Positions 10,233 through 45,515 of a DNA stretch of 64,000 bases are shown here, piece by piece. The position numbers and the translations under genes are program-made. The DNA comes from Escherichia coli. GTDB lineage: Bacteria; Pseudomonadota; Gammaproteobacteria; Enterobacterales; Enterobacteriaceae. Each line of letters begins with the position of its first letter. The stretch's first letter is position 1. Under the pieces are notes generated by a model. That model did no database searches. It saw only the letters and a list, made by a program, of their open reading frames with translations, and was not told the DNA's origin. The stretch lies in the NCBI RefSeq assembly GCF_016903815.1, contig NZ_CP069973.1. One strand, 5' to 3'.

Positions 10233-11423
10233 TTACACTTTTAACTTTCTAGAAAATAAATTTTTCGCTTTTCTGTAAAATGGTAGTTTTTTATTCTTAA
10301 TGGATTTTTCAAGTTTATTCAGCTTTGGCTTACATGTTCGAAGCTCTTGCACAGTCTCTCTAACATAGAGCTGCGTTTGTGTTAGTGGCGGAATTAACCC
10401 ATTATATAGTTTTTTTATATAGTTAATACATAGCTGTGAAGCATTTACCTCTTTATCTACGTAAAAAAGACTTTCACGAAGATTTGATGCTCTTAATACA
10501 ATATCTTGACAGTTATTGAGACAGTGAATTATGGATGGTTCAAAATCAGAAAGACTAGTGCAAACATAACCTATCTCGTCTCTATGTTTAAACTCTAAAG
10601 ATGTAAGATCAAATTTTTGAATACCTATTTTGTTTTTCAATCCAGCTTGATATAGAAGAATAGGTTTTTCTGCATACATACCGTCAAATATAGCCCCAGA
10701 AAAATCACTTATAATCAAATCTGCCGCACAAAGCAATTTTAATTGGTCCGCAGAACCATCGTAAACATGTTTTAAGTTTGCTTTATTTGCAGAATCTACC
10801 CATTCAGGTATTTTTGCATCATTATTGTGATGCATCTTTAATATAAGATTATATTTTGATTGTAACCGAGATATTGTATCCAGAAGTTCAAAATATGAAC
10901 CCAACTCCCCCCAAGTAGGCATGTAAAGCAATGTCTTTTTGGTTATATCTAATTTTAATTCTTTATAAAGCTCTTCTCTATTTGAGTACTTTTGTTTGTA
11001 CTCTAACCAATTATCAAACTTTGGATTTCCAACAGGATAGGATGGCGCATAGTGAGAAACAATATTAGATGAATAGTCACCATACATTAAATTCATGTCA
11101 GCAAGAGAACGCCATTCACCATAATTATGGCGCTCCTTTGCTAAACCATATTGTATTGAAACTAATTTACTATTTTTAATTTTCTCAATACCAGGAAAAG
11201 CCGACTGAAAAAGTAAGATATCATGAGTCCCATCAATAACGGGAACATCATGGGGCTCAATATACACTACATTCCATGATTTGTTATTAATTAACTTCTT
11301 GGGAAACAAGGCAAGGTTATTGTTTTTCCTAATAATAAAAATAGTTGGTTTTTCTAATTTTAATGCAATAGATTTGAATTGAATCAACTGGAATGGATTC
11401 CAGATTATAAATCCTACTTTCAT
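10233..11423 (-). CDS. TagB/TagF-like CDP-glycerol glycerophosphotransferase (putative capsule polymerase/primase)
   Basis: 396 aa ORF; C-terminal motif DLIISDFSGAIFDGMYAEKPILLY resembles the teichoic-acid glycerophosphotransferase signature; next to a cytidylyltransferase. Confidence 0.6.
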   Translation of the reverse strand: MKVGFIIWNPFQLIQFKSIALKLEKPTIFIIRKNNNLALFPKKLINNKSWNVVYIEPHDVPVIDGTHDILLFQSAFPGIEKIKNSKLVSIQYGLAKERHNYGEWRSLADMNLMYGDYSSNIVSHYAPSYPVGNPKFDNWLEYKQKYSNREELYKELKLDITKKTLLYMPTWGELGSYFELLDTISRLQSKYNLILKMHHNNDAKIPEWVDSANKANLKHVYDGSADQLKLLCAADLIISDFSGAIFDGMYAEKPILLYQAGLKNKIGIQKFDLTSLEFKHRDEIGYVCTSLSDFEPSIIHCLNNCQDIVLRASNLRESLFYVDKEVNASQLCINYIKKLYNGLIPPLTQTQLYVRETVQELRTCKPKLNKLEKSIKNKKLPFYRKAKNLFSRKLKV

Positions 11424-11429
11424 ATTTAT

Positions 11430-12689
11430 TCACTTTGTAATTTGTTCAAAAATTATTCTTTCTTTATCCCATTCATGCAGGTGGGTTCCCACTTCATTCT
11501 CATCAACAAAATAATGAGTATGAAAATCTTTATTGTTATGGAAATGAGTAAAACCGAACAAACATTCTTTGGGTATTTTACCAACTATAGAGTAAACCCA
11601 ATAGGCAACTGCTAGTCCTGTACTTGGTAGACCATCTAGTTTTTTTATAAGTGATTTGTACACATGATTTGGTATAACCGTATATTCCATTTCCATTAAT
11701 TGTGGAGCAAGAAAATATTTGTTTGCATCTCTTCTTTTTATTGTGAAATTATTCGCCGCAAAAATAACAAGTCTATTGTTTTTGAGATTATTATTGCTTA
11801 CTTCTTTATTTGCCACTCTAACCCATATATCCTGCTTTGTACCATAATCATCCGGATAGTCCAGGGTATAATTGTTTATTCTAATCACTGTTTTTTTAGA
11901 ATCAATCAACGCTCCATGACCGGTATTTATTTCTGTTGGTGCATTCCCAACAATACAAAAACTACCAGCGGAATTTCTAATTGATTTTATAAACTCATTT
12001 CGTGATTTTAAGATGTGAGAATATTGTTCACTTCCTCTTTGTATATATGGATCATTAAAAATCTTATTCTTTTTAATCTTGTTAAAAACATAAGGACTGC
12101 TTGTATATTTCAACAGAAACTTTTTCCCTATTTGCTTAATAATTTCATTAGCTTTAGCATCCTTATCATTTTGATATAACATTATTGCCAAGCGTAATTT
12201 TTGACTTTTATTTAAATTTCTCAATGATACATCAGAGCAAAGTCGTGATATTATTCTTTTAAGCCTGTCTGATTTATAGCCATATTTTTGTGAAATAAAA
12301 TCAGAATACCTAAGATTAATAGTTATTTCTTTATTTCTGTAATGCGCTGAAATAAAATGTTTTTCTGTAATATCGCTATAGTTACGATATCTTAGTAACC
12401 AATCAGCAATTGAGTAATGAATGTAACGTGATTTTACTTTATTGAATAAGTAAAAAGGTACTATCCCTACATTATCATGCGTTTTTTTTATCTTTATAAA
12501 CAGCAAAGAATTAATAAAATGAAAAAAATGAACTTTACGTATAAACCAAGAACCTTGTAACTTCACCACATTATCTTCACCTATAAAAATGAGTAATCTC
12601 ATTATTAGCTTGTCATAAATACTATATCTAGAAAAATAAACATCTTGCGCTTTTTTTATGAGTATTTTCTTTATTGACATATTATGCAA
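11430..12689 (-). CDS. Putative glycosyltransferase with sialyltransferase-like L-motif
   Basis: 419 aa ORF; segment SFCIVGNAPTEINTGHGALIDSKKTVIRINN resembles the C-x-VGN-x-P ... ID ... V-R-N motif of GT29/GT42-type transferases; assignment tentative. Confidence 0.5.
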   Translation of the reverse strand: MHNMSIKKILIKKAQDVYFSRYSIYDKLIMRLLIFIGEDNVVKLQGSWFIRKVHFFHFINSLLFIKIKKTHDNVGIVPFYLFNKVKSRYIHYSIADWLLRYRNYSDITEKHFISAHYRNKEITINLRYSDFISQKYGYKSDRLKRIISRLCSDVSLRNLNKSQKLRLAIMLYQNDKDAKANEIIKQIGKKFLLKYTSSPYVFNKIKKNKIFNDPYIQRGSEQYSHILKSRNEFIKSIRNSAGSFCIVGNAPTEINTGHGALIDSKKTVIRINNYTLDYPDDYGTKQDIWVRVANKEVSNNNLKNNRLVIFAANNFTIKRRDANKYFLAPQLMEMEYTVIPNHVYKSLIKKLDGLPSTGLAVAYWVYSIVGKIPKECLFGFTHFHNNKDFHTHYFVDENEVGTHLHEWDKERIIFEQITK

Positions 12690-12782
12690 GTTTCTTTTGT
12701 TAGTTCGCTCTAAGCCTCAACAGACATAGGTGTTCATTCCCTTTTCAAGGGGATGAACACCTACCTGAACATAAACATTAAT

Positions 12783-13178
12783 TTAACTGTATTTTTTAAT
12801 CTCCGTAATAAGTTTTGTAGTAGAAATGCCTTCCGTCCTTGGTAAATAAATAACCTCGCATAACTTTTTAAACATATCAAACTTTCCTTCCCAATCATTA
12901 CCCATAATAAGAATGTTAGCTTTATATTTTTTTATATACTCACCTTTTAATTCAAGTGACTCCTCAAGAAATACGTCATCAACATATTGTAGAGAACGAA
13001 TAATTTCACATCGCTCATTTTCTGGGTAAACTGGGTATCTTTGCTTTTTAGAGAAACTTAATGCATCGGATGACACGCCAACAATTAATCGATCACCATA
13101 TTTCTTTGCTCTTTCTAAAATTTTAATGTGGCCAATATGTAAAACATCAAATGTTCCAAAGGTTATGACTGTACGCAT
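12783..13178 (-). CDS. Glycerol-3-phosphate cytidylyltransferase (TagD-like)
   Basis: About 131 aa; N-terminal ITFGTFDVLHIGHIKIL contains the HxGH nucleotidyltransferase signature and matches the TagD-family start; ORF track gives 12783..13190, start trimmed to the Met before RTVITFGTFD. Confidence 0.7.
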   Translation of the reverse strand: MRTVITFGTFDVLHIGHIKILERAKKYGDRLIVGVSSDALSFSKKQRYPVYPENERCEIIRSLQYVDDVFLEESLELKGEYIKKYKANILIMGNDWEGKFDMFKKLCEVIYLPRTEGISTTKLITEIKKYS

Positions 13179-13347: not shown

Positions 13348-14022
13348 TCAATATGTATTAATTGTTATGTTGTTTTTATACTCCTCTATCCCCTCCTGAA
13401 CATCCTCATGAAAACTAACCGCATTATCATCCATAAACACAATGGCCACATCGCAAAACTCTTTCAATGAATTCAAACTATGTGAAACCATTAAAAAACT
13501 AGATTCTTTATGCCTTTCTTTAAACAATTGAGCGCACTTTTCTTTAAACCTGGCATCACCGACCGCCGTTACTTCATCGACGATATAATAATCAAACTTA
13601 AATGCCATGCTTAAACCAAAGCCCAGGCGAGATCGCATACCTGATGAGTAAGTTTTAATCGGCATATCAAAGTACTTACCGAGTTCGGCAAATTCTTCGA
13701 CAAACTCAATTTTCTCTTTCAGTTCTTCTTGCTTCGCGTATAACCGCGCAACAAATTTTACGTTTTCGCGTCCGGTTAAACTTCCCTGAAATCCACCTGC
13801 GAGGCCGACTGGCCATGATATTGTTTTATTAGTGATGATCTTTCCACTGTCGGGGCGGTCAATGCCGCCAATCATTCTCAGTAACGTTGATTTACCCGCT
13901 CCGTTGCGACCAATAAAGGCAACACTTTTTCCTGAAGGGATTTCAATATTTAAATCCTTAAAGACATAGTGTCGACCCGTTGGCGTGCGATAGGACTTCG
14001 TCAAATTCTCAATCTTAATCAT
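13348..14022 (-). CDS. kpsT: Capsule ABC transporter ATP-binding protein KpsT
   Basis: 224 aa ORF; Walker A GRNGAGKST, ABC signature YSSGMRSRLGF, Walker B YYIVDE; ATGA overlap with kpsM. Confidence 0.92.
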   Translation of the reverse strand: MIKIENLTKSYRTPTGRHYVFKDLNIEIPSGKSVAFIGRNGAGKSTLLRMIGGIDRPDSGKIITNKTISWPVGLAGGFQGSLTGRENVKFVARLYAKQEELKEKIEFVEEFAELGKYFDMPIKTYSSGMRSRLGFGLSMAFKFDYYIVDEVTAVGDARFKEKCAQLFKERHKESSFLMVSHSLNSLKEFCDVAIVFMDDNAVSFHEDVQEGIEEYKNNITINTY

Positions 14023-14795
14023 GATGTCAGCATTGCCTCTTCACGCGTTCGGTATAACGCCAGACCGATGAACAGGGTGACCAGAGTGAACATTGCCAGG
14101 TAGTTCAGACTTACGCCTTCGCTGATATAGCCAGGCATAACAGCCTCGCGGCTTAGCTCCACCACATGTACTAATGGGTTCCAGAGTAGATATGACCAGT
14201 ATTGCTTTGGAATCGAGTGTAGAGGGAACATGATGCAGGAGATGAAATACAGCGGCTTAAGCAGTATCGGCAGAACCTTTTGCATTTCGGGGAAGGTTTT
14301 ACCAACGACCATGAATATTAAGCCGACGCCACATGAAAGAATGATCAGCAGGCTCCAGGTAGCCACAAGTTGTAAAAAATTTGTTATCTCGAAATATTCG
14401 CCTGCCATCCAGACAATGAGCATAAGCAGAATATAAACAGCAACGTAAATCAGTGTCTCAAGCAGTGCGCGTGCAATGATCGTATCGATGGGTTTTACTG
14501 GTCGATAATTAAACAACCCCTGATTCGCTTCAATAGCACCTACAGAACGATTGCTGATACTGCTAAAGATAAAAAAGGGAATCAGGCCATTAAGTAAAAA
14601 CACCGGGAATGAGATGTCTGGCATCGTGCGGTGCATAATGTAACCAAAAATGCCCAACAGTATCAGCAAATGCGCAGAGGGTTCGAGAATCGCCCACAAA
14701 TATCCCAGACGGAACTTACCAAAGCGTGTTCGTATTTCTCGTAGAAATAATGCCTCTACGGTGACTTTCTGGACTTCAAATCCACTTCTTGCCAT
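14019..14795 (-). CDS. kpsM: Capsule ABC transporter permease KpsM
   Basis: 258 aa polytopic membrane protein starting MARSGFEVQKVTVEALFLREIRTRFG; the ORF track extends to 14936 but that extension covers the ops element and is not coding. Confidence 0.9.
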   Translation of the reverse strand: MARSGFEVQKVTVEALFLREIRTRFGKFRLGYLWAILEPSAHLLILLGIFGYIMHRTMPDISFPVFLLNGLIPFFIFSSISNRSVGAIEANQGLFNYRPVKPIDTIIARALLETLIYVAVYILLMLIVWMAGEYFEITNFLQLVATWSLLIILSCGVGLIFMVVGKTFPEMQKVLPILLKPLYFISCIMFPLHSIPKQYWSYLLWNPLVHVVELSREAVMPGYISEGVSLNYLAMFTLVTLFIGLALYRTREEAMLTS

Positions 14796-15855
14796 TTGAT
14801 GATGTGATCCTAATCTCTTCAGGTACGCTACCGCCCCTGGCTTAACAGCTACCAATACACTGGAGGTAATACTTGACTTGTTTGTAACTGGATAAAATTC
14901 ATTCGGACGGCTTGACCTTTTAATAGCCAAAAACAATTTCAGCAGAAATTATTTCCGCAGGGATAAATAGATCTATTTCCGTCTCGTTTCTTCTAATCCA
15001 TTCTTCAGGCATGAATGTATTCGGTCTTCTGGTAATTTCAGAAAACTGGCCGTTTTAGAATGCAGAGTTAATTTCTCAGGAAATTATTTTTTGTGATTAC
15101 TGTTAACTACTTGATTATAATATCCCCTATGGATTTTATGCGTAACAATACCTACAATCTGTTTCAAACCAGAACGCACGCGATTGATTACCAATAAATT
15201 GTTCACCGAGAAACTATTTCCCTATTTAAAATTCACTCGTGTACTTCTTATTTATATCTACAGCCCCCTCTTTACAGCCATATTTGTGATTCATATCACA
15301 TTTAAATGGTGTTATTTAAGTCGCATCAATAATCCCGAAGGTAATTATTTTCGTCGATTAAAATATACATCTTGATTATTTTGTGTGTTTATTTTAACCA
15401 GTGTTACAACCAACACCATCCCTCAGTAGATATACCTGAGCAGACATTTCTTAAAATCAACGAATAGTTTCACTGGAAATTATTATGCTTATTTGAAATT
15501 CCCTTTCTGATTATCTCCAGGAATTTTACTAATTTCCAAGCTACACAAAATACAGATCACACAAGAATTATCCTATATGTTTTGGCCTATCAATTGTTAC
15601 TCAATGATTTATTGCAACTATTAATAATCATAATGTGTCAAAACACTTAAGCAACTTTACAGTCTGAGAAAGGTGTCGATTAACGAAGGCTACATGGTGA
15701 AAAACAGGTTCCTTCAGTGTTACCGAATATTCCGTGGTGGTCTGGAGGGAGATAATTCTTGCTACATCGAAACTCAGCCCGGTAAGCGGGTTTGACAGTT
15801 CCGCACTCACCATTGGGCTAAGGGTTATCAGGTGGGGTTAAGGAAATGGCAATAC
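14796..15855 (-). promoter_or_regulatory. kps region 3 promoter and long untranslated leader (capsule-island to backbone junction)
   Basis: About 1 kb AT-rich non-coding region between kpsM and gspM with no convincing ORF; the region 3 promoter is known to lie several hundred bp upstream of kpsM. Exact -10/-35 not assigned. Confidence 0.5.
14824..14835 (-). promoter_or_regulatory. ops-like element (RfaH recruitment site) within a JUMPstart-like leader upstream of kpsM
   Basis: Minus-strand sequence GGCGGTAGCGTA about 30 nt upstream of the kpsM ATG matches the ops core GGCGGTAG; this is the known position for kps region 3. Confidence 0.8.
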
Positions 15856-25357: not shown

Positions 25358-26317
25358 TTAGCGCAGCGCGATGGAAATGTCGTGGCGCGCACCCTTGCGT
25401 AAAACCGTAAGTTGAATGGAATCCATTGAAGGTAACTGCCGCATCAGAGCAATCATTGCTCGTGGATCAGTGAAATCCTGCTGATTTAGCGCAATGGCGA
25501 TATCGCCTTCCCTGAAACCGCTGACATCGAACAGAGAACGATCTGCCCCCGGCTTCACTGCATAACCGACAATCCCCTCCTTACGCACAGGCGTAAGCTG
25601 GATATAGTTAAAAATTTTCTGCGGATCTTTCGCCAGTGCCTGACGCACGGCAGTCGGGATCTCAACTGGCGCACTGACAGCAGGTTCAGCAACAGCTTGC
25701 TTTGCTTCGTCACTGACAGCTTTTTTGTTGGTCACGGCAACGGTGGAACGCTCCTCTTCAGCCAGGCTCAGGCGCTCTATTTTTCCCTGATAGCGCAGCA
25801 TCACATGGTCGCGGTTGATTTCCTCAATCACCGCGTTGTGAGAACCAAGCCGTTCCCCCTGCAAATAGACCTGCTGTTTGCCACCTTCTTCAATAACCGC
25901 GCCAGGTCTGGCACCAAAGGCGATCCCGCGCAGCACCACATTAAGACGTGTTTCTGCCACAGGCACAGGTTCAGGTTGTTTTACCGGTGCGGCGACGGGC
26001 TGATATTTGCCAAACCAGTTTTGCTGGCTGATTAATTGCACGTCATTTTTATCGAACGTTTTTGCATCTGCACGGGGCGGTTTATTCGCCGATGGGGAAA
26101 CCGCCGTATATTCCGCAGAAAAGGAGAAATAGCGCCAGAGTGAATGCGCCACTTTTGCAGAAATAATAAGCAGCATCAGCCAGAACATCGCGCGTACAAT
26201 TTTTCGCAGATGCTCTTTGTCTGTATTAAGAGATTGTCTCTGGTTAAGAGTGTGACGAATTTTTGTCAGCCATTGAATGAGATAAATTCGTGCGTCACGA
26301 AAAACAACCCGCGCCAA
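25358..26317 (-). CDS. gspC: Type II secretion protein C
   Basis: 319 aa ORF with single TM segment near the N-terminus; immediately upstream of gspD. The start codon is uncertain. Confidence 0.75.
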   Translation of the reverse strand: MARVVFRDARIYLIQWLTKIRHTLNQRQSLNTDKEHLRKIVRAMFWLMLLIISAKVAHSLWRYFSFSAEYTAVSPSANKPPRADAKTFDKNDVQLISQQNWFGKYQPVAAPVKQPEPVPVAETRLNVVLRGIAFGARPGAVIEEGGKQQVYLQGERLGSHNAVIEEINRDHVMLRYQGKIERLSLAEEERSTVAVTNKKAVSDEAKQAVAEPAVSAPVEIPTAVRQALAKDPQKIFNYIQLTPVRKEGIVGYAVKPGADRSLFDVSGFREGDIAIALNQQDFTDPRAMIALMRQLPSMDSIQLTVLRKGARHDISIALR

Positions 26318-26334
26318 TTTATATCTACCCGACG

Positions 26335-26745
26335 TTATGCTTTGACTATTCCACAGGTGGTACGATCCAGTTTCCGCTGATACTGGTTACCTGTACGTGT
26401 ATCATTAATCATTATGCTGTAATTAATTCCCTCGGTTATCATTAATTTCACCGTCGGGTCAGCGCACATTTGTCGTTGATAGCTGGTTAAAAAGGCATCA
26501 GGCGTCTGCGTGGTCTGAGCACCCGCTTCGCTGATAATGGTCATTTTTACCGTCGTGCCGCTACTTTGCGCCAGCACTAAGGTATATCCCGCAGATTTAA
26601 TCGGCAGGTTTTGGCTGATATTTTGCGCCTGTTTTTTCGCCAGTAAACTGGCATTTTCATTATGGCTGGCACAGCCACTTAATAATCCTGTAACGCTCAA
26701 CAATAGCGATATTAATACCCTCCCTGGCATTTGTTTTATCGACAT
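26335..26745 (-). CDS. yghG: T2SS-associated lipoprotein (pilotin GspS-beta/AspS, YghG)
   Basis: 136 aa ORF; lipoprotein signal with lipobox (LLSVTGLLSGC); between pppA and gspC. Confidence 0.8.
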   Translation of the reverse strand: MSIKQMPGRVLISLLLSVTGLLSGCASHNENASLLAKKQAQNISQNLPIKSAGYTLVLAQSSGTTVKMTIISEAGAQTTQTPDAFLTSYQRQMCADPTVKLMITEGINYSIMINDTRTGNQYQRKLDRTTCGIVKA

Positions 26746-26810
26746 GGTAAATAATCTCTAAGGTTATTAATAAGAGTTAAAATATCACTTTGATAATGAC
26801 GTTGTTATCA

Positions 26811-27620
26811 TTAAAACAATGCCTGTAGATAAAGTGTTGCTATACCGCCCAGACTTAAACACGGTCCAAAAGGCAGTGTGGTTGATCCTCTTTTTGTAAT
26901 AACGGCATATATCAGGCCGCAGCATGAGGCGATTAAAGCAACGTTGGGCAGTGATAACGCCCCCACCCAGCCACCTAAAGCGGCGAAGAGTAATACATCG
27001 CCCATGCCTAATGCTTCTTTACGCAGAACTATTCCGGCTATCCAGCGCAGGGAGTAAAAAGTGATAAACCCCACCAGGACGCCGGTGACTGCGTCTTGTA
27101 GCGTTAACGGACTCTGTTGCGCCCATGCCGCAATCAGCCCGGTCCACAATACGCCCTGAGTAAAAACATCGGGCAGCCATTGGTTGTCGAGGTCGATGAT
27201 GCTCGCGGCAATCAGCCACGCGGATAATATCATCACCGCCAGTCCCCATCCACTTTCTGGCCACACCAGACTCGCCAGCAAAAAAGCAAGTGCTGTCAAT
27301 AACTCAACCAGCGGATAACGCTTGCTGATTTTCGCCTGACAGTCGCGGCAGCGCCCTTTGAGCATCAACCATGAGAGCAGCGGAATATTGTCACGAACGC
27401 GGATAGTCTGCTGGCAATGCGGACAGTGCGAACGCGGTAGCGCAAGGCTTATTTTTGACTGCGTACTCGGCGTTTCACCATGAAACTCCGCCATTTGTTG
27501 GCGCAGCATGATGGGGTAACGCCAAATCACCACATTCAAAAAACTGCCGATGATCAATCCTCCGACGGTTGCCAGTATGGGCATCGCCGCGGGGTATTGC
27601 TGAAAAACATCAAAAAGCAT
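26811..27620 (-). CDS. pppA: Prepilin peptidase (A24 family)
   Basis: 269 aa polytopic membrane protein; tetracysteine motif (CPHCQQ...CRDCQ) typical of prepilin peptidases. Confidence 0.88.
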
Positions 27621-42274: not shown

Positions 42275-43399
42275 TTAAATTTGCTTTTCATACAATCGGT
42301 AACGCTTGTACGGCTCCGCCCCAATGCGTTCCAGCATGTTATTCATGCCTGTATTGGTTTCGAGGATCCATGACATCTCCAGCGCATCGATCTTCCGGCG
42401 GGCAAACGGATCGCGTAAGGCTTCAATCAATAACAGCGCAATCACCGGGCCGATGCGGCTGAACTGATACTCGTCGCGCACGCCCATCAGCGGTACTCGC
42501 GCAGTTCGCACACCGCTGACTTTCAAACGCCACAGCAATTTTGCCCAGCCGAAGGGAAAGAGCGATCCGTTCAGATCGGCAATCGCCTCGTTGATGTTCG
42601 GCAAGCCGACAATAAACGCGCAGGGTGCAGAATCAATCTCAGCGATATAGATCATATCGTCCGGCACCAGATATTTAAGTTGATCGCCCATGGTCGCGAA
42701 TTCATGTTCGGTAAACGGCACAAATCCCCAGTTGTGCTGCCAGCCAGAGTTGAAAATCTCACGCAGGATCTGCATCTCTTCGGCAAACCGCTGACGATTG
42801 ATGCAGCGAATGGTCACCTTTTTGCGCACCTGATCCATCAGTTTTTTTAGCGCCGGAGAGAAAGTGAGATCGGTTCGCTGCATCCACCACGCCAGTAAAT
42901 CAATGCCTTTGTGATAACCCAGTTGTTCAATATGCGCGGCATACCACGGTTTGCCGTGTGGCATCATCGCACAGGGTGGTGTGTCAAAACCTTCAATCAG
43001 TAATCCGCTTTCCTGATTGATATTCAGGCTGAAAGGACCGCTGATCTTACTTGCACCTTGTGACTTCAACCACGCTTCCGCTGCGCCAAACAACGCGGCA
43101 AAAACCTGCGGATCATCAATGGCGTCAATCATGCCGAAATGACCGGTATCTTTGCCGTAACGCTCGCGGTGCAAGGTATCTATTTGCGCGGTAATACGCC
43201 CAACTATCTGCCCCGCTTTTTTTGCCACCCACGCCTGCCAGATGATATGGTCCGTCCCCGGATTTTTCGCAGACAAATGCTCGTTGCGTTCAATGAATAA
43301 AGGGGGTATCCAGTTTGGATCGTCGGGATAAAGTGATGACGGAAAAGCGATAAATGCCTTAAGGTCATTTTTATTAATTACTTTTTCAATTTTAATCAT
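42275..43399 (-). CDS. yghO: YghO family protein; candidate N-acyltransferase partner of the adjacent lipid operon
   Basis: ORF open from 43495, with more plausible starts at internal Mets (MIKIEKVINKND..., at about 43399); divergent from the acyl-AMP ligase operon. Acyltransferase assignment is an inference, not a motif call. Confidence 0.6.
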   Translation of the reverse strand: MIKIEKVINKNDLKAFIAFPSSLYPDDPNWIPPLFIERNEHLSAKNPGTDHIIWQAWVAKKAGQIVGRITAQIDTLHRERYGKDTGHFGMIDAIDDPQVFAALFGAAEAWLKSQGASKISGPFSLNINQESGLLIEGFDTPPCAMMPHGKPWYAAHIEQLGYHKGIDLLAWWMQRTDLTFSPALKKLMDQVRKKVTIRCINRQRFAEEMQILREIFNSGWQHNWGFVPFTEHEFATMGDQLKYLVPDDMIYIAEIDSAPCAFIVGLPNINEAIADLNGSLFPFGWAKLLWRLKVSGVRTARVPLMGVRDEYQFSRIGPVIALLLIEALRDPFARRKIDALEMSWILETNTGMNNMLERIGAEPYKRYRLYEKQI

Positions 43400-43784
43400 C
43401 AGCAGATCGCATTCCATAGTTCTGTTCTGTGGGTAACAAATAATTAACGGTGACAAACAGGTTGCAACAGCAACGAACGGCACCTTAATAATCAACCCAA
43501 TGAATACAAACGACGAATAAATAGTATTTATTAATGATTACGATAAGGTCAGAGACTACACAGAAGCGCCACAATGCCTTTTGTCGATTTAAGGCGACCG
43601 GACAAGGCTTCTTCTTAATATATTCATAAATTAAATATCATTCACAATAAAAACAAAAAAACTCAAACTCATTATTTAAATCAATGTTCATTTTCACACT
43701 GATGAAAATACTATCTCATTTATCTTTTATGCCTATATAATCCACCGCATTATTGTCATTTTATTTTGGATATCCAATTTTTTC

Positions 43785-45515
43785 GTGGTGTATATGTCTA
43801 ATAAAATCTTTACGCATTCCCTACCTATGCGCTATGCCGATTTTCCAACGCTTGTTGATGCTTTGGACTACGCCGCTCTGAGTAGCGCCGGAATGAATTT
43901 TTATGACAGACGTTGCCAACTTGAAGATCAACTGGAATATCAGACGTTAAAAGCACGTGCCGAAGCTGGTGCGAAGCGGTTGTTATCGCTGAACCTGAAA
44001 AAAGGCGATCGCGTGGCACTGATTGCCGAAACAAGTAGCGAGTTCGTAGAGGCTTTTTTTGCCTGCCAGTATGCCGGCTTAGTCGCCGTCCCGTTGGCGA
44101 TTCCAATGGGCGTTGGTCAGCGGGATTCCTGGAGCGCCAAATTGCAGGGTTTACTGGCAAGTTGCCAGCCCGCAGCCATTATCACTGGTGATGAGTGGTT
44201 GCCACTGGTCAATGCCGCGACGCATGACAACCCCGAATTACATGTTTTAAGCCACGCCTGGTTTAAGGCATTACCGGAAGCCGATGTTGCGCTCCAGCGT
44301 CCAGTTCCGAACGATATCGCCTACCTCCAGTACACCTCCGGCAGCACCCGTTTTCCCCGTGGCGTCATTATCACCCATCGCGAAGTGATGGCTAATCTAC
44401 GTGCTATAAGCCACGACGGCATTAAATTACGCCCTGGCGACCGCTGCGTCTCCTGGCTGCCTTTCTACCATGATATGGGACTGGTCGGCTTTCTCCTGAC
44501 CCCCGTCGCCACGCAGCTTTCAGTAGATTATTTGCGCACTCAGGATTTTGCCATGCGTCCTCTGCAATGGCTTAAATTGATCAGTAAAAATCGCGGCACC
44601 GTTTCCGTTGCGCCGCCGTTTGGCTATGAATTGTGCCAGCGCCGCGTGAATGAAAAAGATCTCGCTGAACTGGATCTTTCCTGCTGGCGCGTCGCTGGTA
44701 TTGGTGCAGAACCCATCTCCGCAGAACAACTCCATCAATTCGCTGAATGTTTCCGTCAGGTTAACTTTGACAATAAAACTTTCATGCCGTGCTACGGACT
44801 GGCAGAAAATGCGCTGGCTGTCAGCTTCTCTGATGAAGCCTCCGGGGTTGTGGTTAACGAAGTGGATCGCGACATCCTCGAATATCAGGGTAAAGCCGTC
44901 GCGCCGGGTGCAGAGACACGCGCCGTATCGACTTTCGTCAACTGCGGCAAAGCGTTGCCGGAACATGGTATTGAAATCCGCAATGAAGCAGGTATGCCGG
45001 TCGCGGAACGTGTGGTAGGCCATATTTGCATCTCCGGTCCCAGTCTGATGAGCGGTTACTTTGGCGACCAGGTTTCGCAAGACGAGATTGCCGCGACGGG
45101 CTGGTTAGACACCGGCGACCTCGGTTATCTGCTGGACGGTTATCTGTATGTCACCGGACGCATTAAAGATCTGATTATTATTCGTGGCCGTAATATCTGG
45201 CCGCAGGATATTGAATATATAGCGGAACAGGAACCGGAAATTCATTCTGGCGATGCGATTGCTTTTGTTACCGCCCAGGAAAAAATCATTTTGCAGATCC
45301 AGTGTCGGATCAGCGACGAAGAACGTCGCGGGCAGCTTATCCACGCGCTGGCGGCACGGATCCAAAGCGAATTTGGCGTGACCGCGGCTATCGATCTGTT
45401 GCCGCCCCACAGTATTCCCCGAACGTCCTCCGGCAAGCCTGCCCGTGCGGAAGCGAAAAAACGTTATCAGAAGGCTTATGCTGCCAGTCTTAATGTGCAG
45501 GAATCCCTGGCATGA
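43785..45515 (+). CDS. Fatty acyl-AMP ligase / acyl-ACP synthetase-like adenylating enzyme
   Basis: 576 aa ORF; AMP-binding motif YTSGSTRFPRGVIITH, later TGDLG and GRIKDLIIIRGRN motifs; 4-bp overlap with the next gene. Confidence 0.85.
   Translation: MVYMSNKIFTHSLPMRYADFPTLVDALDYAALSSAGMNFYDRRCQLEDQLEYQTLKARAEAGAKRLLSLNLKKGDRVALIAETSSEFVEAFFACQYAGLVAVPLAIPMGVGQRDSWSAKLQGLLASCQPAAIITGDEWLPLVNAATHDNPELHVLSHAWFKALPEADVALQRPVPNDIAYLQYTSGSTRFPRGVIITHREVMANLRAISHDGIKLRPGDRCVSWLPFYHDMGLVGFLLTPVATQLSVDYLRTQDFAMRPLQWLKLISKNRGTVSVAPPFGYELCQRRVNEKDLAELDLSCWRVAGIGAEPISAEQLHQFAECFRQVNFDNKTFMPCYGLAENALAVSFSDEASGVVVNEVDRDILEYQGKAVAPGAETRAVSTFVNCGKALPEHGIEIRNEAGMPVAERVVGHICISGPSLMSGYFGDQVSQDEIAATGWLDTGDLGYLLDGYLYVTGRIKDLIIIRGRNIWPQDIEYIAEQEPEIHSGDAIAFVTAQEKIILQIQCRISDEERRGQLIHALAARIQSEFGVTAAIDLLPPHSIPRTSSGKPARAEAKKRYQKAYAASLNVQESLA

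What the first reader, a model, noticed from the sequence alone, without database searches (positions are those of the whole stretch)
11430..12689. Region 2 glycosyltransferase carrying a sialyltransferase-like L-motif in a locus without sialic acid genes
The segment CIVGNAPTE...GALIDSKKTVIRINN resembles the conserved nucleotide-sugar-binding motif of GT29/GT42-type enzymes, but no CMP-sialic acid synthesis genes are present. It may be a sialyltransferase-fold enzyme repurposed for a hexose or for Kdo.
Basis: seen in the sequence. Interest (0 to 1): 0.45.

Follow-up and report, generated by a model that had tools for sequence, protein, structure and literature searches.

The report
Sialyltransferase-fold enzyme, probable capsule Kdo transferase
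This E. coli capsule gene encodes a true relative of animal sialyltransferases (family GT29). It most likely adds the eight-carbon acidic sugar Kdo, not sialic acid, to build the K24 capsule of Kdo and glycerol phosphate, a sensible but untested candidate for an enzyme type not yet characterised in bacteria.

Summary

The window is an E. coli group 2 kps locus. Its region 2 is 96% identical to that of strain A0 34/86 (O83:K24:H31) and has the gene order of the K24 reference locus. K24 contains alpha-Kdop. Its glycerol phosphate component rests on my memory of the 1990 paper's title.

Region 2 offers two transferase candidates, a TagB/TagF-like glycerophosphotransferase and this GT29-like protein. 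GT29 enzymes invert CMP-beta-ulosonic acid donors to alpha products, so it is the best candidate for the inverting alpha-Kdo transferase.

Three further results support this. The GT29-like, TagB-like and TagD-like genes form a conserved triad in other bacteria. In 32 of 50 long relatives the domain is fused to KpsC-type Kdo transferase modules, and never to TagF-like modules. Some related loci have no CDP-glycerol genes.

No biochemistry exists. RefSeq already names the protein GT29, and a 2026 paper proposes Kdo transfer for the GT29 domain of K6. I rate it a new member of a known kind, of moderate interest.

The parts
11430..12680 (-). GT29-like protein (K24_11 equivalent), 416 aa from the RefSeq ATG at 12680.
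11973..12680 (-). N-terminal all-helical TPR-like repeat domain (residues 1-236)
11433..11972 (-). C-terminal GT29-type (GT-A variant 2) catalytic domain (residues 237-416)
11871..11957 (-). Sialylmotif L equivalent: C242-IVGN...IDSKKTVIRIN-N270
11550..11627 (-). Sialylmotif S equivalent: P352-STG...LFGF377
11508..11516 (-). Motif III equivalent: H389-Y390-F391
11460..11477 (-). Motif VS equivalent: H402-EWDK-E407. H402 sits at the position of the GT29 catalytic-base histidine.
   Evidence: (H 98%, E 98% in 166 domains)
10233..11423 (-). TagB/TagF-like CDP-glycerol glycerophosphotransferase with a basic C-terminal tail. It starts 6 nt after the GT29-like stop codon and is the proposed Gro3P-onto-Kdo transferase.
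   Evidence: conserved adjacency
12783..13178 (-). TagD-like glycerol-3-phosphate cytidylyltransferase (CDP-glycerol supply)
   Evidence: TIGR01518 is the best hit, 129 bits
9038..10204 (-). Alpha/beta-hydrolase domain (GVSMGG, Asp, His) plus C-terminal TPR. Possible capsule O-acetyltransferase or scaffold; not a glycosyltransferase.
7657..8655 (-). Beta-propeller protein (PF21311), function unknown, conserved in K24-like loci of Pseudomonas
3364..4104 (+). kpsU, the CMP-Kdo synthetase that would supply the proposed donor
4101..7395 (+). kpsC and kpsS, retaining beta-Kdo transferases that make the poly-Kdo anchor
13348..14795 (-). kpsT and kpsM, the ABC exporter (region 3)
14828..14835 (-). 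ops element GGCGGTAG upstream of kpsM. It marks the RfaH-dependent transcript that reads through region 3 into region 2.
   Evidence: the role is from established knowledge of kps regulation

Best explanation
The gene encodes a cytoplasmic two-domain enzyme: an N-terminal TPR-like helical domain and a C-terminal GT29-type catalytic domain. I propose it is the inverting alpha-Kdo transferase of the E. coli K24 capsule.

Proposed mechanism:
1. The GT29-like enzyme takes CMP-beta-Kdo, made by KpsU/KdsB, and transfers Kdo to a hydroxyl of the terminal glycerol phosphate of the growing chain. CMP is released and an alpha-ketoside forms. H402 of the VS motif acts as the base, and motif III H389/Y390 and the L and S motifs hold the CMP.
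2. The adjacent TagB/TagF-like enzyme then adds glycerol 3-phosphate from CDP-glycerol, made by the TagD-like enzyme, onto Kdo.
3. Alternation of the two single-domain enzymes builds a teichoic-acid-like poly(Kdo-glycerol-phosphate) on the KpsS/KpsC beta-Kdo glycolipid.
4. The polymer is exported by KpsMTED.

What is shown: GT29 homology, fold and motif conservation, the identity of the locus with K24, the conserved gene triad, and the fusion pattern.

What is inferred: the donor, the acceptor, the alternation of the two enzymes, and the roles of individual residues.
For: Homology to GT29:
- Pfam PF00777 above its cut-off.
- The profile hits only GT29 structures, at E 1e-14 to 1e-9.
- Motif residues are conserved across 166 domains: N246 98%, D260 98%, R267 100%, P352 98%, G355 99%, H402 98%, E407 98%.

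Identity of the locus:
- Region 2 is 95.9% identical over its whole length to strain A0 34/86, the O83:K24:H31 probiotic.
- Gene order and sizes match the K24 reference locus, genes K24_8 to K24_12.
- K24 contains alpha-pyranosidic Kdo (PMC12887879).

Elimination within region 2:
- The other region 2 proteins are a cytidylyltransferase, a TagB-like glycerophosphotransferase, an alpha/beta hydrolase with TPR, and a beta-propeller.
- KpsC and KpsS are retaining beta-Kdo enzymes.

Context in other bacteria:
- The GT29-like gene sits directly upstream of the TagB-like gene, with a TagD-like gene present, in every locus read for a close homologue: Pseudomonas, Pusillimonas and metagenomic contigs.
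- kdsA and kdsB/kdsC lie alongside in three of those loci.
- 32 of 50 long relatives are fused to KpsC/KpsS-type Kdo transferase modules, and none to TagF-like modules.
- Loci L009 and L010 carry the fused domain but no CDP-glycerol genes.

Precedents:
- Cps7A, a TagB-like enzyme, transfers Gro3P specifically onto Kdo (PMC11666461).
- Plant GT29 RCKT1 is a putative inverting CMP-beta-Kdo transferase (PMC11288761).
- The dual GT29-GT107 ORF of K6 has been proposed to make poly-Kdo (PMC13171606).
Against: - There is no enzymatic or genetic test of this protein.
- The glycerol phosphate component and the linkage positions of K24 rest on my memory of Lenter, Jann and Jann 1990. The paper is not in the library and could not be read.
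- The window's allele is 4% diverged from the serotyped strain.
- CMP is also the leaving group of CDP-glycerol, so motif conservation alone does not discriminate between the donors.
- Locus L007 has an additional TagF-like plus GT4 polymerase. There the pair might build a linker rather than the bulk polymer.
- The TagB-like protein did not retrieve Cps7A among its 80 best homologues.
Confidence: 0.7

Rival explanations
1. The GT29-like domain uses CDP-glycerol, which also releases CMP. It would act as a glycerol-phosphate transferase or polymerase, a functional analogue of the LicD-type CpsC, while the TagB-like enzyme only primes the Kdo anchor.
For: CMP is the leaving group in both reactions. 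The gene always co-occurs with TagD-like and TagB-like genes in the close family. In App7, CpsA plus CpsC make a poly(Gro3P) linker.
Against: K24 would then lack any alpha-Kdo transferase. Related domains occur in loci with no CDP-glycerol genes. They are fused to Kdo transferases and never to TagF-like modules. No GT29-fold phosphotransferase is known to me.
Confidence: 0.1
2. It is a transition or capping enzyme acting once per chain on the KpsC-made beta-Kdo linker. It would add a single alpha-Kdo or other CMP-activated residue rather than serve as the repeat-unit polymerase component.
For: The domain is often fused C-terminally to KpsC-like proteins. Locus L007 has a separate full TagF-like polymerase.
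Against: Region 2 of K24 has no other candidate for the repeat-unit Kdo linkage. In the Pusillimonas locus the triad stands with no TPR or propeller gene next to it.
Confidence: 0.12
3. It is a genuine sialyltransferase or other nonulosonic acid transferase, using a CMP-nonulosonate made elsewhere in the genome.
For: Full sialylmotif set and GT29 fold.
Against: No neu-type genes are in the locus. The K24 polymer contains Kdo and is not known to contain sialic acid. The homologous loci supply Kdo genes, not NulO genes.
Confidence: 0.04
4. It is a hexosyltransferase using a UDP- or GDP-hexose, with the sialylmotifs retained only structurally.
For: Arabidopsis GALT29A is named as a GT29 member with a galactosyltransferase-type name.
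Against: No hexose is known in K24. The sialylmotif positions that GT29 enzymes use for CMP binding, and the catalytic His and Glu, are 98-100% conserved. There are no hexose-nucleotide genes in region 2.
Confidence: 0.02

Closest known systems
Eukaryotic GT29 sialyltransferases (ST3Gal-I, ST6Gal1, ST6GalNAc2, ST8SiaIII)
   Same: GT-A variant 2 fold. Sialylmotifs L, S, III and VS, including the VS His and Glu. Expected inverting chemistry with CMP as leaving group.
   Different: The protein is cytoplasmic, with no predicted signal anchor. The catalytic domain is compact, about 180 aa. The L-S disulfide is absent: the L-motif Cys is only 52% conserved (Ala 42%) and there is no Cys at the S-motif position. 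It has an N-terminal TPR-like domain. The predicted donor is CMP-Kdo and the acceptor a glycerol phosphate.
Plant GT29 RCKT1/MGP2, the putative RG-II CMP-beta-Kdo transferase (PMC11288761)
   Same: A GT29-fold enzyme in an organism that makes no sialic acid, proposed to make an alpha-Kdo linkage from CMP-beta-Kdo.
   Different: RCKT1 is a Golgi type II membrane protein acting on pectin. It is 32% identical to ST3Gal-I, whereas this protein is about 17%. Neither enzyme has been assayed in vitro.
Bacterial GT29-like sequences (Petit et al. 2018, PMC5811610) and GT29-like domains of E. coli K6, K94, K111 and K126 loci (PMC13171606)
   Same: The same bacterial branch with all sialylmotifs. The dual GT29-GT107 ORF of K6 is already proposed to transfer Kdo.
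   Different: Here the domain stands alone with a TPR-like N-terminus and is paired with a TagB-like enzyme rather than fused to a GT107 or GT4 module. The main text of that paper does not mention K24 or its enzyme.
TagF-like capsule polymerases and transition transferases (Cps3D/Cps7D, Cps7A/Cps7C; PMC5974469, PMC11666461)
   Same: Teichoic-acid-like group 2 capsule. CDP-glycerol supplied by a TagD-like enzyme. A PF04464 Gro3P transferase. TPR modules.
   Different: The glycosyltransferase partner is GT29-like (a CMP donor), not a UDP-hexose GT-B or GT-A enzyme. The two activities are on separate polypeptides. There is no LicD-type CpsC.
Known Kdo transferases: WaaA (GT30, inverting alpha) and KpsC, KpsS, WbbB, KrkA (GT107, GT99, GT140, retaining beta)
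   Same: The same donor, CMP-beta-Kdo. KpsC-type modules are often fused to this domain in other bacteria.
   Different: An unrelated fold, with no PF05159 or GT30 match in this protein. The predicted alpha product contrasts with the beta products of the capsule enzymes.

Membership tests
GT29 (Pfam PF00777 / CAZy GT29 fold family) | Match to the family HMM above the curated threshold | tested here: met
   31.3 bits against a cut-off of 23. RefSeq name 'glycosyltransferase family 29 protein'.
GT29 (Pfam PF00777 / CAZy GT29 fold family) | Sialylmotifs L, S, III and VS in order | tested here: met
   The HMM alignment to ST6GalNAc2, ST3Gal-I and ST8SiaIII covers all four motifs.
GT29 (Pfam PF00777 / CAZy GT29 fold family) | GT-A variant 2 fold | tested here: met
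   [not shown]
GT29 (Pfam PF00777 / CAZy GT29 fold family) | Conserved L-S disulfide and type II membrane/stem architecture of eukaryotic members | tested here: not met
   The L-motif Cys is 52% Cys and 42% Ala across the family, and there is no Cys at the S-motif position. The N-terminus is a soluble helical repeat. No transmembrane prediction was run.
GT29 (Pfam PF00777 / CAZy GT29 fold family) | Sialyltransferase activity with a CMP-sialic acid donor | not testable with these tools
   Context argues against it: no neu genes in the locus, and a Kdo-containing K24 polymer.
GT29 (Pfam PF00777 / CAZy GT29 fold family) | Formal CAZy GT29 assignment | tested here: inconclusive
   In the dbCAN table of PMC13171606, K24_11 has no family call (N in the three tool columns) and appears only as 'GT0'.
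GT42 (CstI/CstII-type sialyltransferases) | Closest structural or sequence match to GT42 | tested here: not met
   [not shown]
E. coli K24 kps locus | Region 2 gene content and order as in the K24 reference, and sequence identity to a serotyped K24 strain | tested here: met
   The K24_8 to K24_12 descriptions match. 95.9% identity over 5.7 kb to A0 34/86, which is O83:K24:H31.
E. coli K24 kps locus | K24 serology or polymer chemistry of the strain carrying this exact allele | not testable with these tools
   The window's allele is 100% identical in about 50 genomes of unknown K serotype.
Retaining beta-Kdo transferases (GT99, GT107, GT140; PF05159) | PF05159/KpsC-like module in this protein | tested here: not met
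   Only PF00777 is found. PF05159 occurs in KpsC and KpsS and in fused relatives.
TagF-like capsule polymerase systems | PF04464 Gro3P transferase plus CDP-glycerol synthesis in region 2 | tested here: met
TagF-like capsule polymerase systems | Glycosyltransferase, TagF-like and TPR modules on one polypeptide | tested here: not met
   The genes are separate. The glycosyltransferase is GT29-like.

The most novel reading that the evidence does not exclude
This would be the first bacterial GT29-fold enzyme with an assignable reaction: an inverting alpha-Kdo transferase. With a TagB-like partner it would form a minimal two-enzyme polymerase for a Kdo-glycerol-phosphate capsule. It belongs to a large prokaryotic GT29-like family, about 1,800 clusters at 50% identity, frequently fused to KpsC-type Kdo transferases. 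The ancestral donor of that family may be CMP-Kdo. If so, eukaryotic sialyltransferases and plant RG-II Kdo transferases would descend from bacterial capsule Kdo transferases.
Probability: 0.45. Interest if true: 0.65.

Novelty: new member of a known kind. Interest (0 to 1): 0.5.

Why it matters
Alpha-linked Kdo in capsules needs an inverting transferase, and none has been characterised. Recent papers say the variable-region Kdo enzymes are largely unstudied and note the need for an inverting enzyme.

K24 offers the simplest test bed, with one GT29-like enzyme and one TagB-like enzyme.

K24-type loci occur in the probiotic strain A0 34/86 (Colinfant), in the adherent-invasive strains LF82 and NRG857C, and in about 50 other complete genomes, many from human isolates.

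An assayable bacterial GT29 enzyme would also help the stalled biochemistry of plant RCKT1, and would inform the origin of eukaryotic sialyltransferases.

Tried and rejected
1. My first guess was the K2 capsule (Gal-glycerol-phosphate), because of the TagD-like and TagF-like genes. I rejected it: there is no hexosyltransferase or glf gene, and region 2 matches the K24-typed strain and the K24 reference locus instead.

2. I considered CDP-glycerol as the donor of the GT29-like domain. I kept it as a minor rival after finding fusions to Kdo transferases and related loci without CDP-glycerol genes.

3. I tested whether the 'TPR protein' could be a CpsC-like LicD polymerase or a hidden glycosyltransferase. 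It is not. Its N-terminal domain is an alpha/beta hydrolase with a GVSMGG motif, and its best named structural relative is the NmA capsule O-acetyltransferase CsaC.

4. I tried to link the TagB-like protein directly to Cps7A through a homologue search. App proteins were not among the 80 best hits.

5. I tried to find the published K24 repeat-unit linkages. No paper in the library holds 'K24 antigen', and EK3D and the BMC Genomics paper do not list it in their text.

6. With the close-family profile alone, the PDB sequence search was only marginal (E 0.01-0.1). It became decisive only after I broadened the profile.

Full report
**Observation.** The window region 11430-12689 holds one long ORF on the minus strand. 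RefSeq annotates it from the ATG at 12680, giving 416 aa. Residue numbers below use that start. The quoted peptide is real: 11871-11957 (-) translates to CIVGNAPTEINTGHGALIDSKKTVIRINN.

**Locus.** The gene lies in a low-GC block, about 0.28-0.33 against about 0.52 in the flanks. This block is region 2 of an E. coli group 2 kps capsule locus.
- Region 1: the kpsF 3' end, then kpsE, D, U, C and S on the plus strand at 3-7395.
- Region 3: kpsT and kpsM on the minus strand at 13348-14795. An ops element, GGCGGTAG, lies at 14828-14835.
- The locus sits next to the gsp type II secretion genes.

**Is it more than a motif resemblance?** Yes.
- Pfam PF00777 (GT29 sialyltransferase) matches residues 217-412 at 31.3 bits, above the curated cut-off of 23.
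- Among 23 close homologues the invariant residues fall exactly in the four sialylmotifs:
  - L: C242, G245, N246, D260, R267, N269
  - S: P352-S-T-G355, G376-F377
  - III: H389-Y390
  - VS: H402 and E407
- In 166 domain instances drawn from an exhaustive profile search, these stay at 86-100%, except H389 (70%) and the L-motif Cys (52% Cys, 42% Ala).
- A profile of the close family alone hit only GT29 structures in the PDB, but weakly (E 0.01-0.1).
- A profile from 30 diverse domains hit all eight GT29 sequences at E 3.5e-14 to 8e-10 and nothing else below 0.029. Its alignments run from motif L to motif VS.
- The AlphaFold model (pLDDT 88.7, pTM 0.87) has an N-terminal all-helical repeat (1-236) and a C-terminal alpha/beta domain (237-416).

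So this is a GT29-type enzyme rather than GT42. It lacks the eukaryotic L-S disulfide, and its N-terminus is a soluble helical repeat rather than a membrane anchor.

**What locus is this?**
- The gene is present in 60 of 5,426 complete E. coli genomes, always on the chromosome, and is named 'glycosyltransferase family 29 protein'.
- The whole of region 2 (5.7 kb) is 100% identical in about 50 genomes. It is 96.1% identical in LF82 and NRG857C (O83:H1) and 95.9% identical in strain A0 34/86. A0 34/86 is the Colinfant probiotic, serotyped O83:K24:H31.
- The K24 reference locus in the supplement of PMC13171606 has the same gene series: K24_8, a beta-propeller; K24_9, a TPR protein of 385 aa; K24_10, a 396-aa teichoic-acid primase-like protein; K24_11, with no dbCAN family call and listed as GT0; and K24_12, a cytidylyltransferase.
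- K24 contains alpha-pyranosidic Kdo (PMC12887879).
- From my own memory of the title of Lenter, Jann and Jann 1990, the polymer consists of alpha-Kdop and glycerol phosphate. I could not read that paper. The CDP-glycerol genes in the locus fit that composition.

**Inventory of region 2.** There are five genes:
- 12783-13178: a TagD-like cytidylyltransferase. Its best NCBIfam hit is glycerol-3-phosphate cytidylyltransferase, at 129 bits.
- 11430-12680: the GT29-like protein.
- 10233-11423: a TagB/TagF-like PF04464 protein with a basic C-terminal tail. It starts 6 nt after the GT29-like stop codon.
- 7657-8655: a beta-propeller protein, PF21311.

A Kdo-glycerol-phosphate repeat needs one ketosidic bond and one phosphodiester bond. 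The phosphodiester bond fits the TagB-like enzyme, because its relative Cps7A transfers Gro3P from CDP-glycerol specifically onto Kdo (PMC11666461). Only the GT29-like protein is left for the alpha-Kdo bond. GT29 enzymes invert CMP-beta-ulosonic acid donors to alpha products (established knowledge, restated). The capsule enzymes KpsC and KpsS, and the GT99, GT107 and GT140 families, are retaining and give beta products.

**Evidence from other bacteria.**
- Close homologues are few: 27 clusters at 90% identity.
- In every locus read for a close homologue, the GT29-like gene lies directly upstream of a TagB-like gene of about 390 aa. The spacing runs from a 12-nt gap to a 43-nt overlap. A TagD-like gene is present, and the setting is an ABC-transporter capsule locus. 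These loci are from Pseudomonas kurunegalensis, four metagenomic contigs and Pusillimonas.
- Three of these loci also carry kdsA and a kdsB-kdsC fusion next to the triad, which suggests high CMP-Kdo demand.
- In the Pusillimonas locus the triad has no TPR or propeller gene next to it.
- The wider family is large: 1,804 representatives at E < 1e-3 and 795 at E < 1e-10.
- Of the 50 members in hand of at least 550 aa, 32 carry KpsC/KpsS-type beta-Kdo transferase modules and none carries a TagF-like module. Others are fused to GT4, GT8, DUF4422 or pyruvyltransferase domains.
- Locus L009 has a KpsC-TPR-GT29 fusion, further PF05159 proteins, a pyruvyltransferase and a full Kdo pathway, but no other recognisable glycosyltransferase and no CDP-glycerol genes.
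- Locus L010 resembles the E. coli K126/K6 arrangement and also lacks CDP-glycerol genes.

These patterns point to CMP-Kdo, not CDP-glycerol, as the family's donor.

**Rivals.**
- CDP-glycerol as donor (0.10) is chemically conceivable because CMP is again the leaving group. It would leave K24 without a Kdo transferase, and it conflicts with the fusion and context data.
- A once-per-chain transition or capping role (0.12) is suggested by the KpsC fusions and by the extra TagF-like plus GT4 polymerase in locus L007. K24 has no other candidate for the repeat-unit bond.
- True sialyl or nonulosonate transfer (0.04) and hexose transfer (0.02) lack any support from the locus or the polymer.

**Comparison with what is known.**
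- Bacterial GT29-like sequences with all sialylmotifs were reported in 2018 (PMC5811610).
- RefSeq already names this protein as a GT29 family member.
[quoted passage not shown] Its main text does not mention K24.
- Plant GT29 RCKT1 is the nearest functional precedent, a putative CMP-beta-Kdo transferase making alpha-Kdo.
- Within the TagF-like capsule systems, K24 is a variant in which the sugar-adding partner is a separate GT29-like enzyme.

**Verdict.** The finding is a new member of a known kind. It is real and biologically coherent. It is partly anticipated in annotation and in recent literature, and it has not been tested biochemically. Confidence in the alpha-Kdo transferase assignment is about 0.7. 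Interest is 0.5.

Noticed in passing
[not shown]
   Followed up: partly
window 7657-8655 (-): A beta-propeller protein (PF21311, annotated 'phage baseplate protein') is conserved in the K24-like capsule loci of Pseudomonas and of metagenomic contigs. Its function is unknown and there was no NCBIfam match.
   Followed up: partly
window 12783-13178 (-): RefSeq names this gene 'pantoate--beta-alanine ligase' or 'FAD synthase family protein'. Its best curated match is glycerol-3-phosphate cytidylyltransferase (TIGR01518, 129 bits), which fits CDP-glycerol supply. This is a likely misannotation.
   Followed up: yes
window 12727-12763: A 17-nt inverted repeat, 94% complementary with a 3-nt loop, lies in the intergenic space between the TagD-like and GT29-like genes. 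No T-run follows on the coding strand. It may be an mRNA stability or processing element.
   Followed up: no
L009:9400-12915 and neighbours: A metagenomic capsule locus encodes a 1,171-aa KpsC-TPR-GT29-like fusion. It also has further PF05159 proteins, a pyruvyltransferase and a complete Kdo pathway, but no other recognisable glycosyltransferase. It is a candidate (pyruvylated) Kdo homopolymer capsule.
   Followed up: no
P0083, P0113 (relatives): Some GT29-like domains are fused to a radical SAM/SPASM domain, or to MptE-like and nucleotide-diphospho-sugar transferase domains. These architectures are unexplained.
   Followed up: no
L007:9339-11936: One K24-like triad is accompanied by an 865-aa TagF-like plus GT4 polymerase. 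In that organism the GT29-like/TagB-like pair may build a linker rather than the main polymer.
   Followed up: no
window 26001-27000, 32001-33000, 43001-44000: Further low-GC kilobase blocks (0.41-0.44 against about 0.53) lie outside the kps locus. I did not examine them.
   Followed up: no
window 14828-14835 (-): The ops/JUMPstart core GGCGGTAG lies 33 nt upstream of the kpsM start. The 305-aa ORF from the mechanical ORF list overruns it, and the real kpsM is 258 aa.
   Followed up: yes
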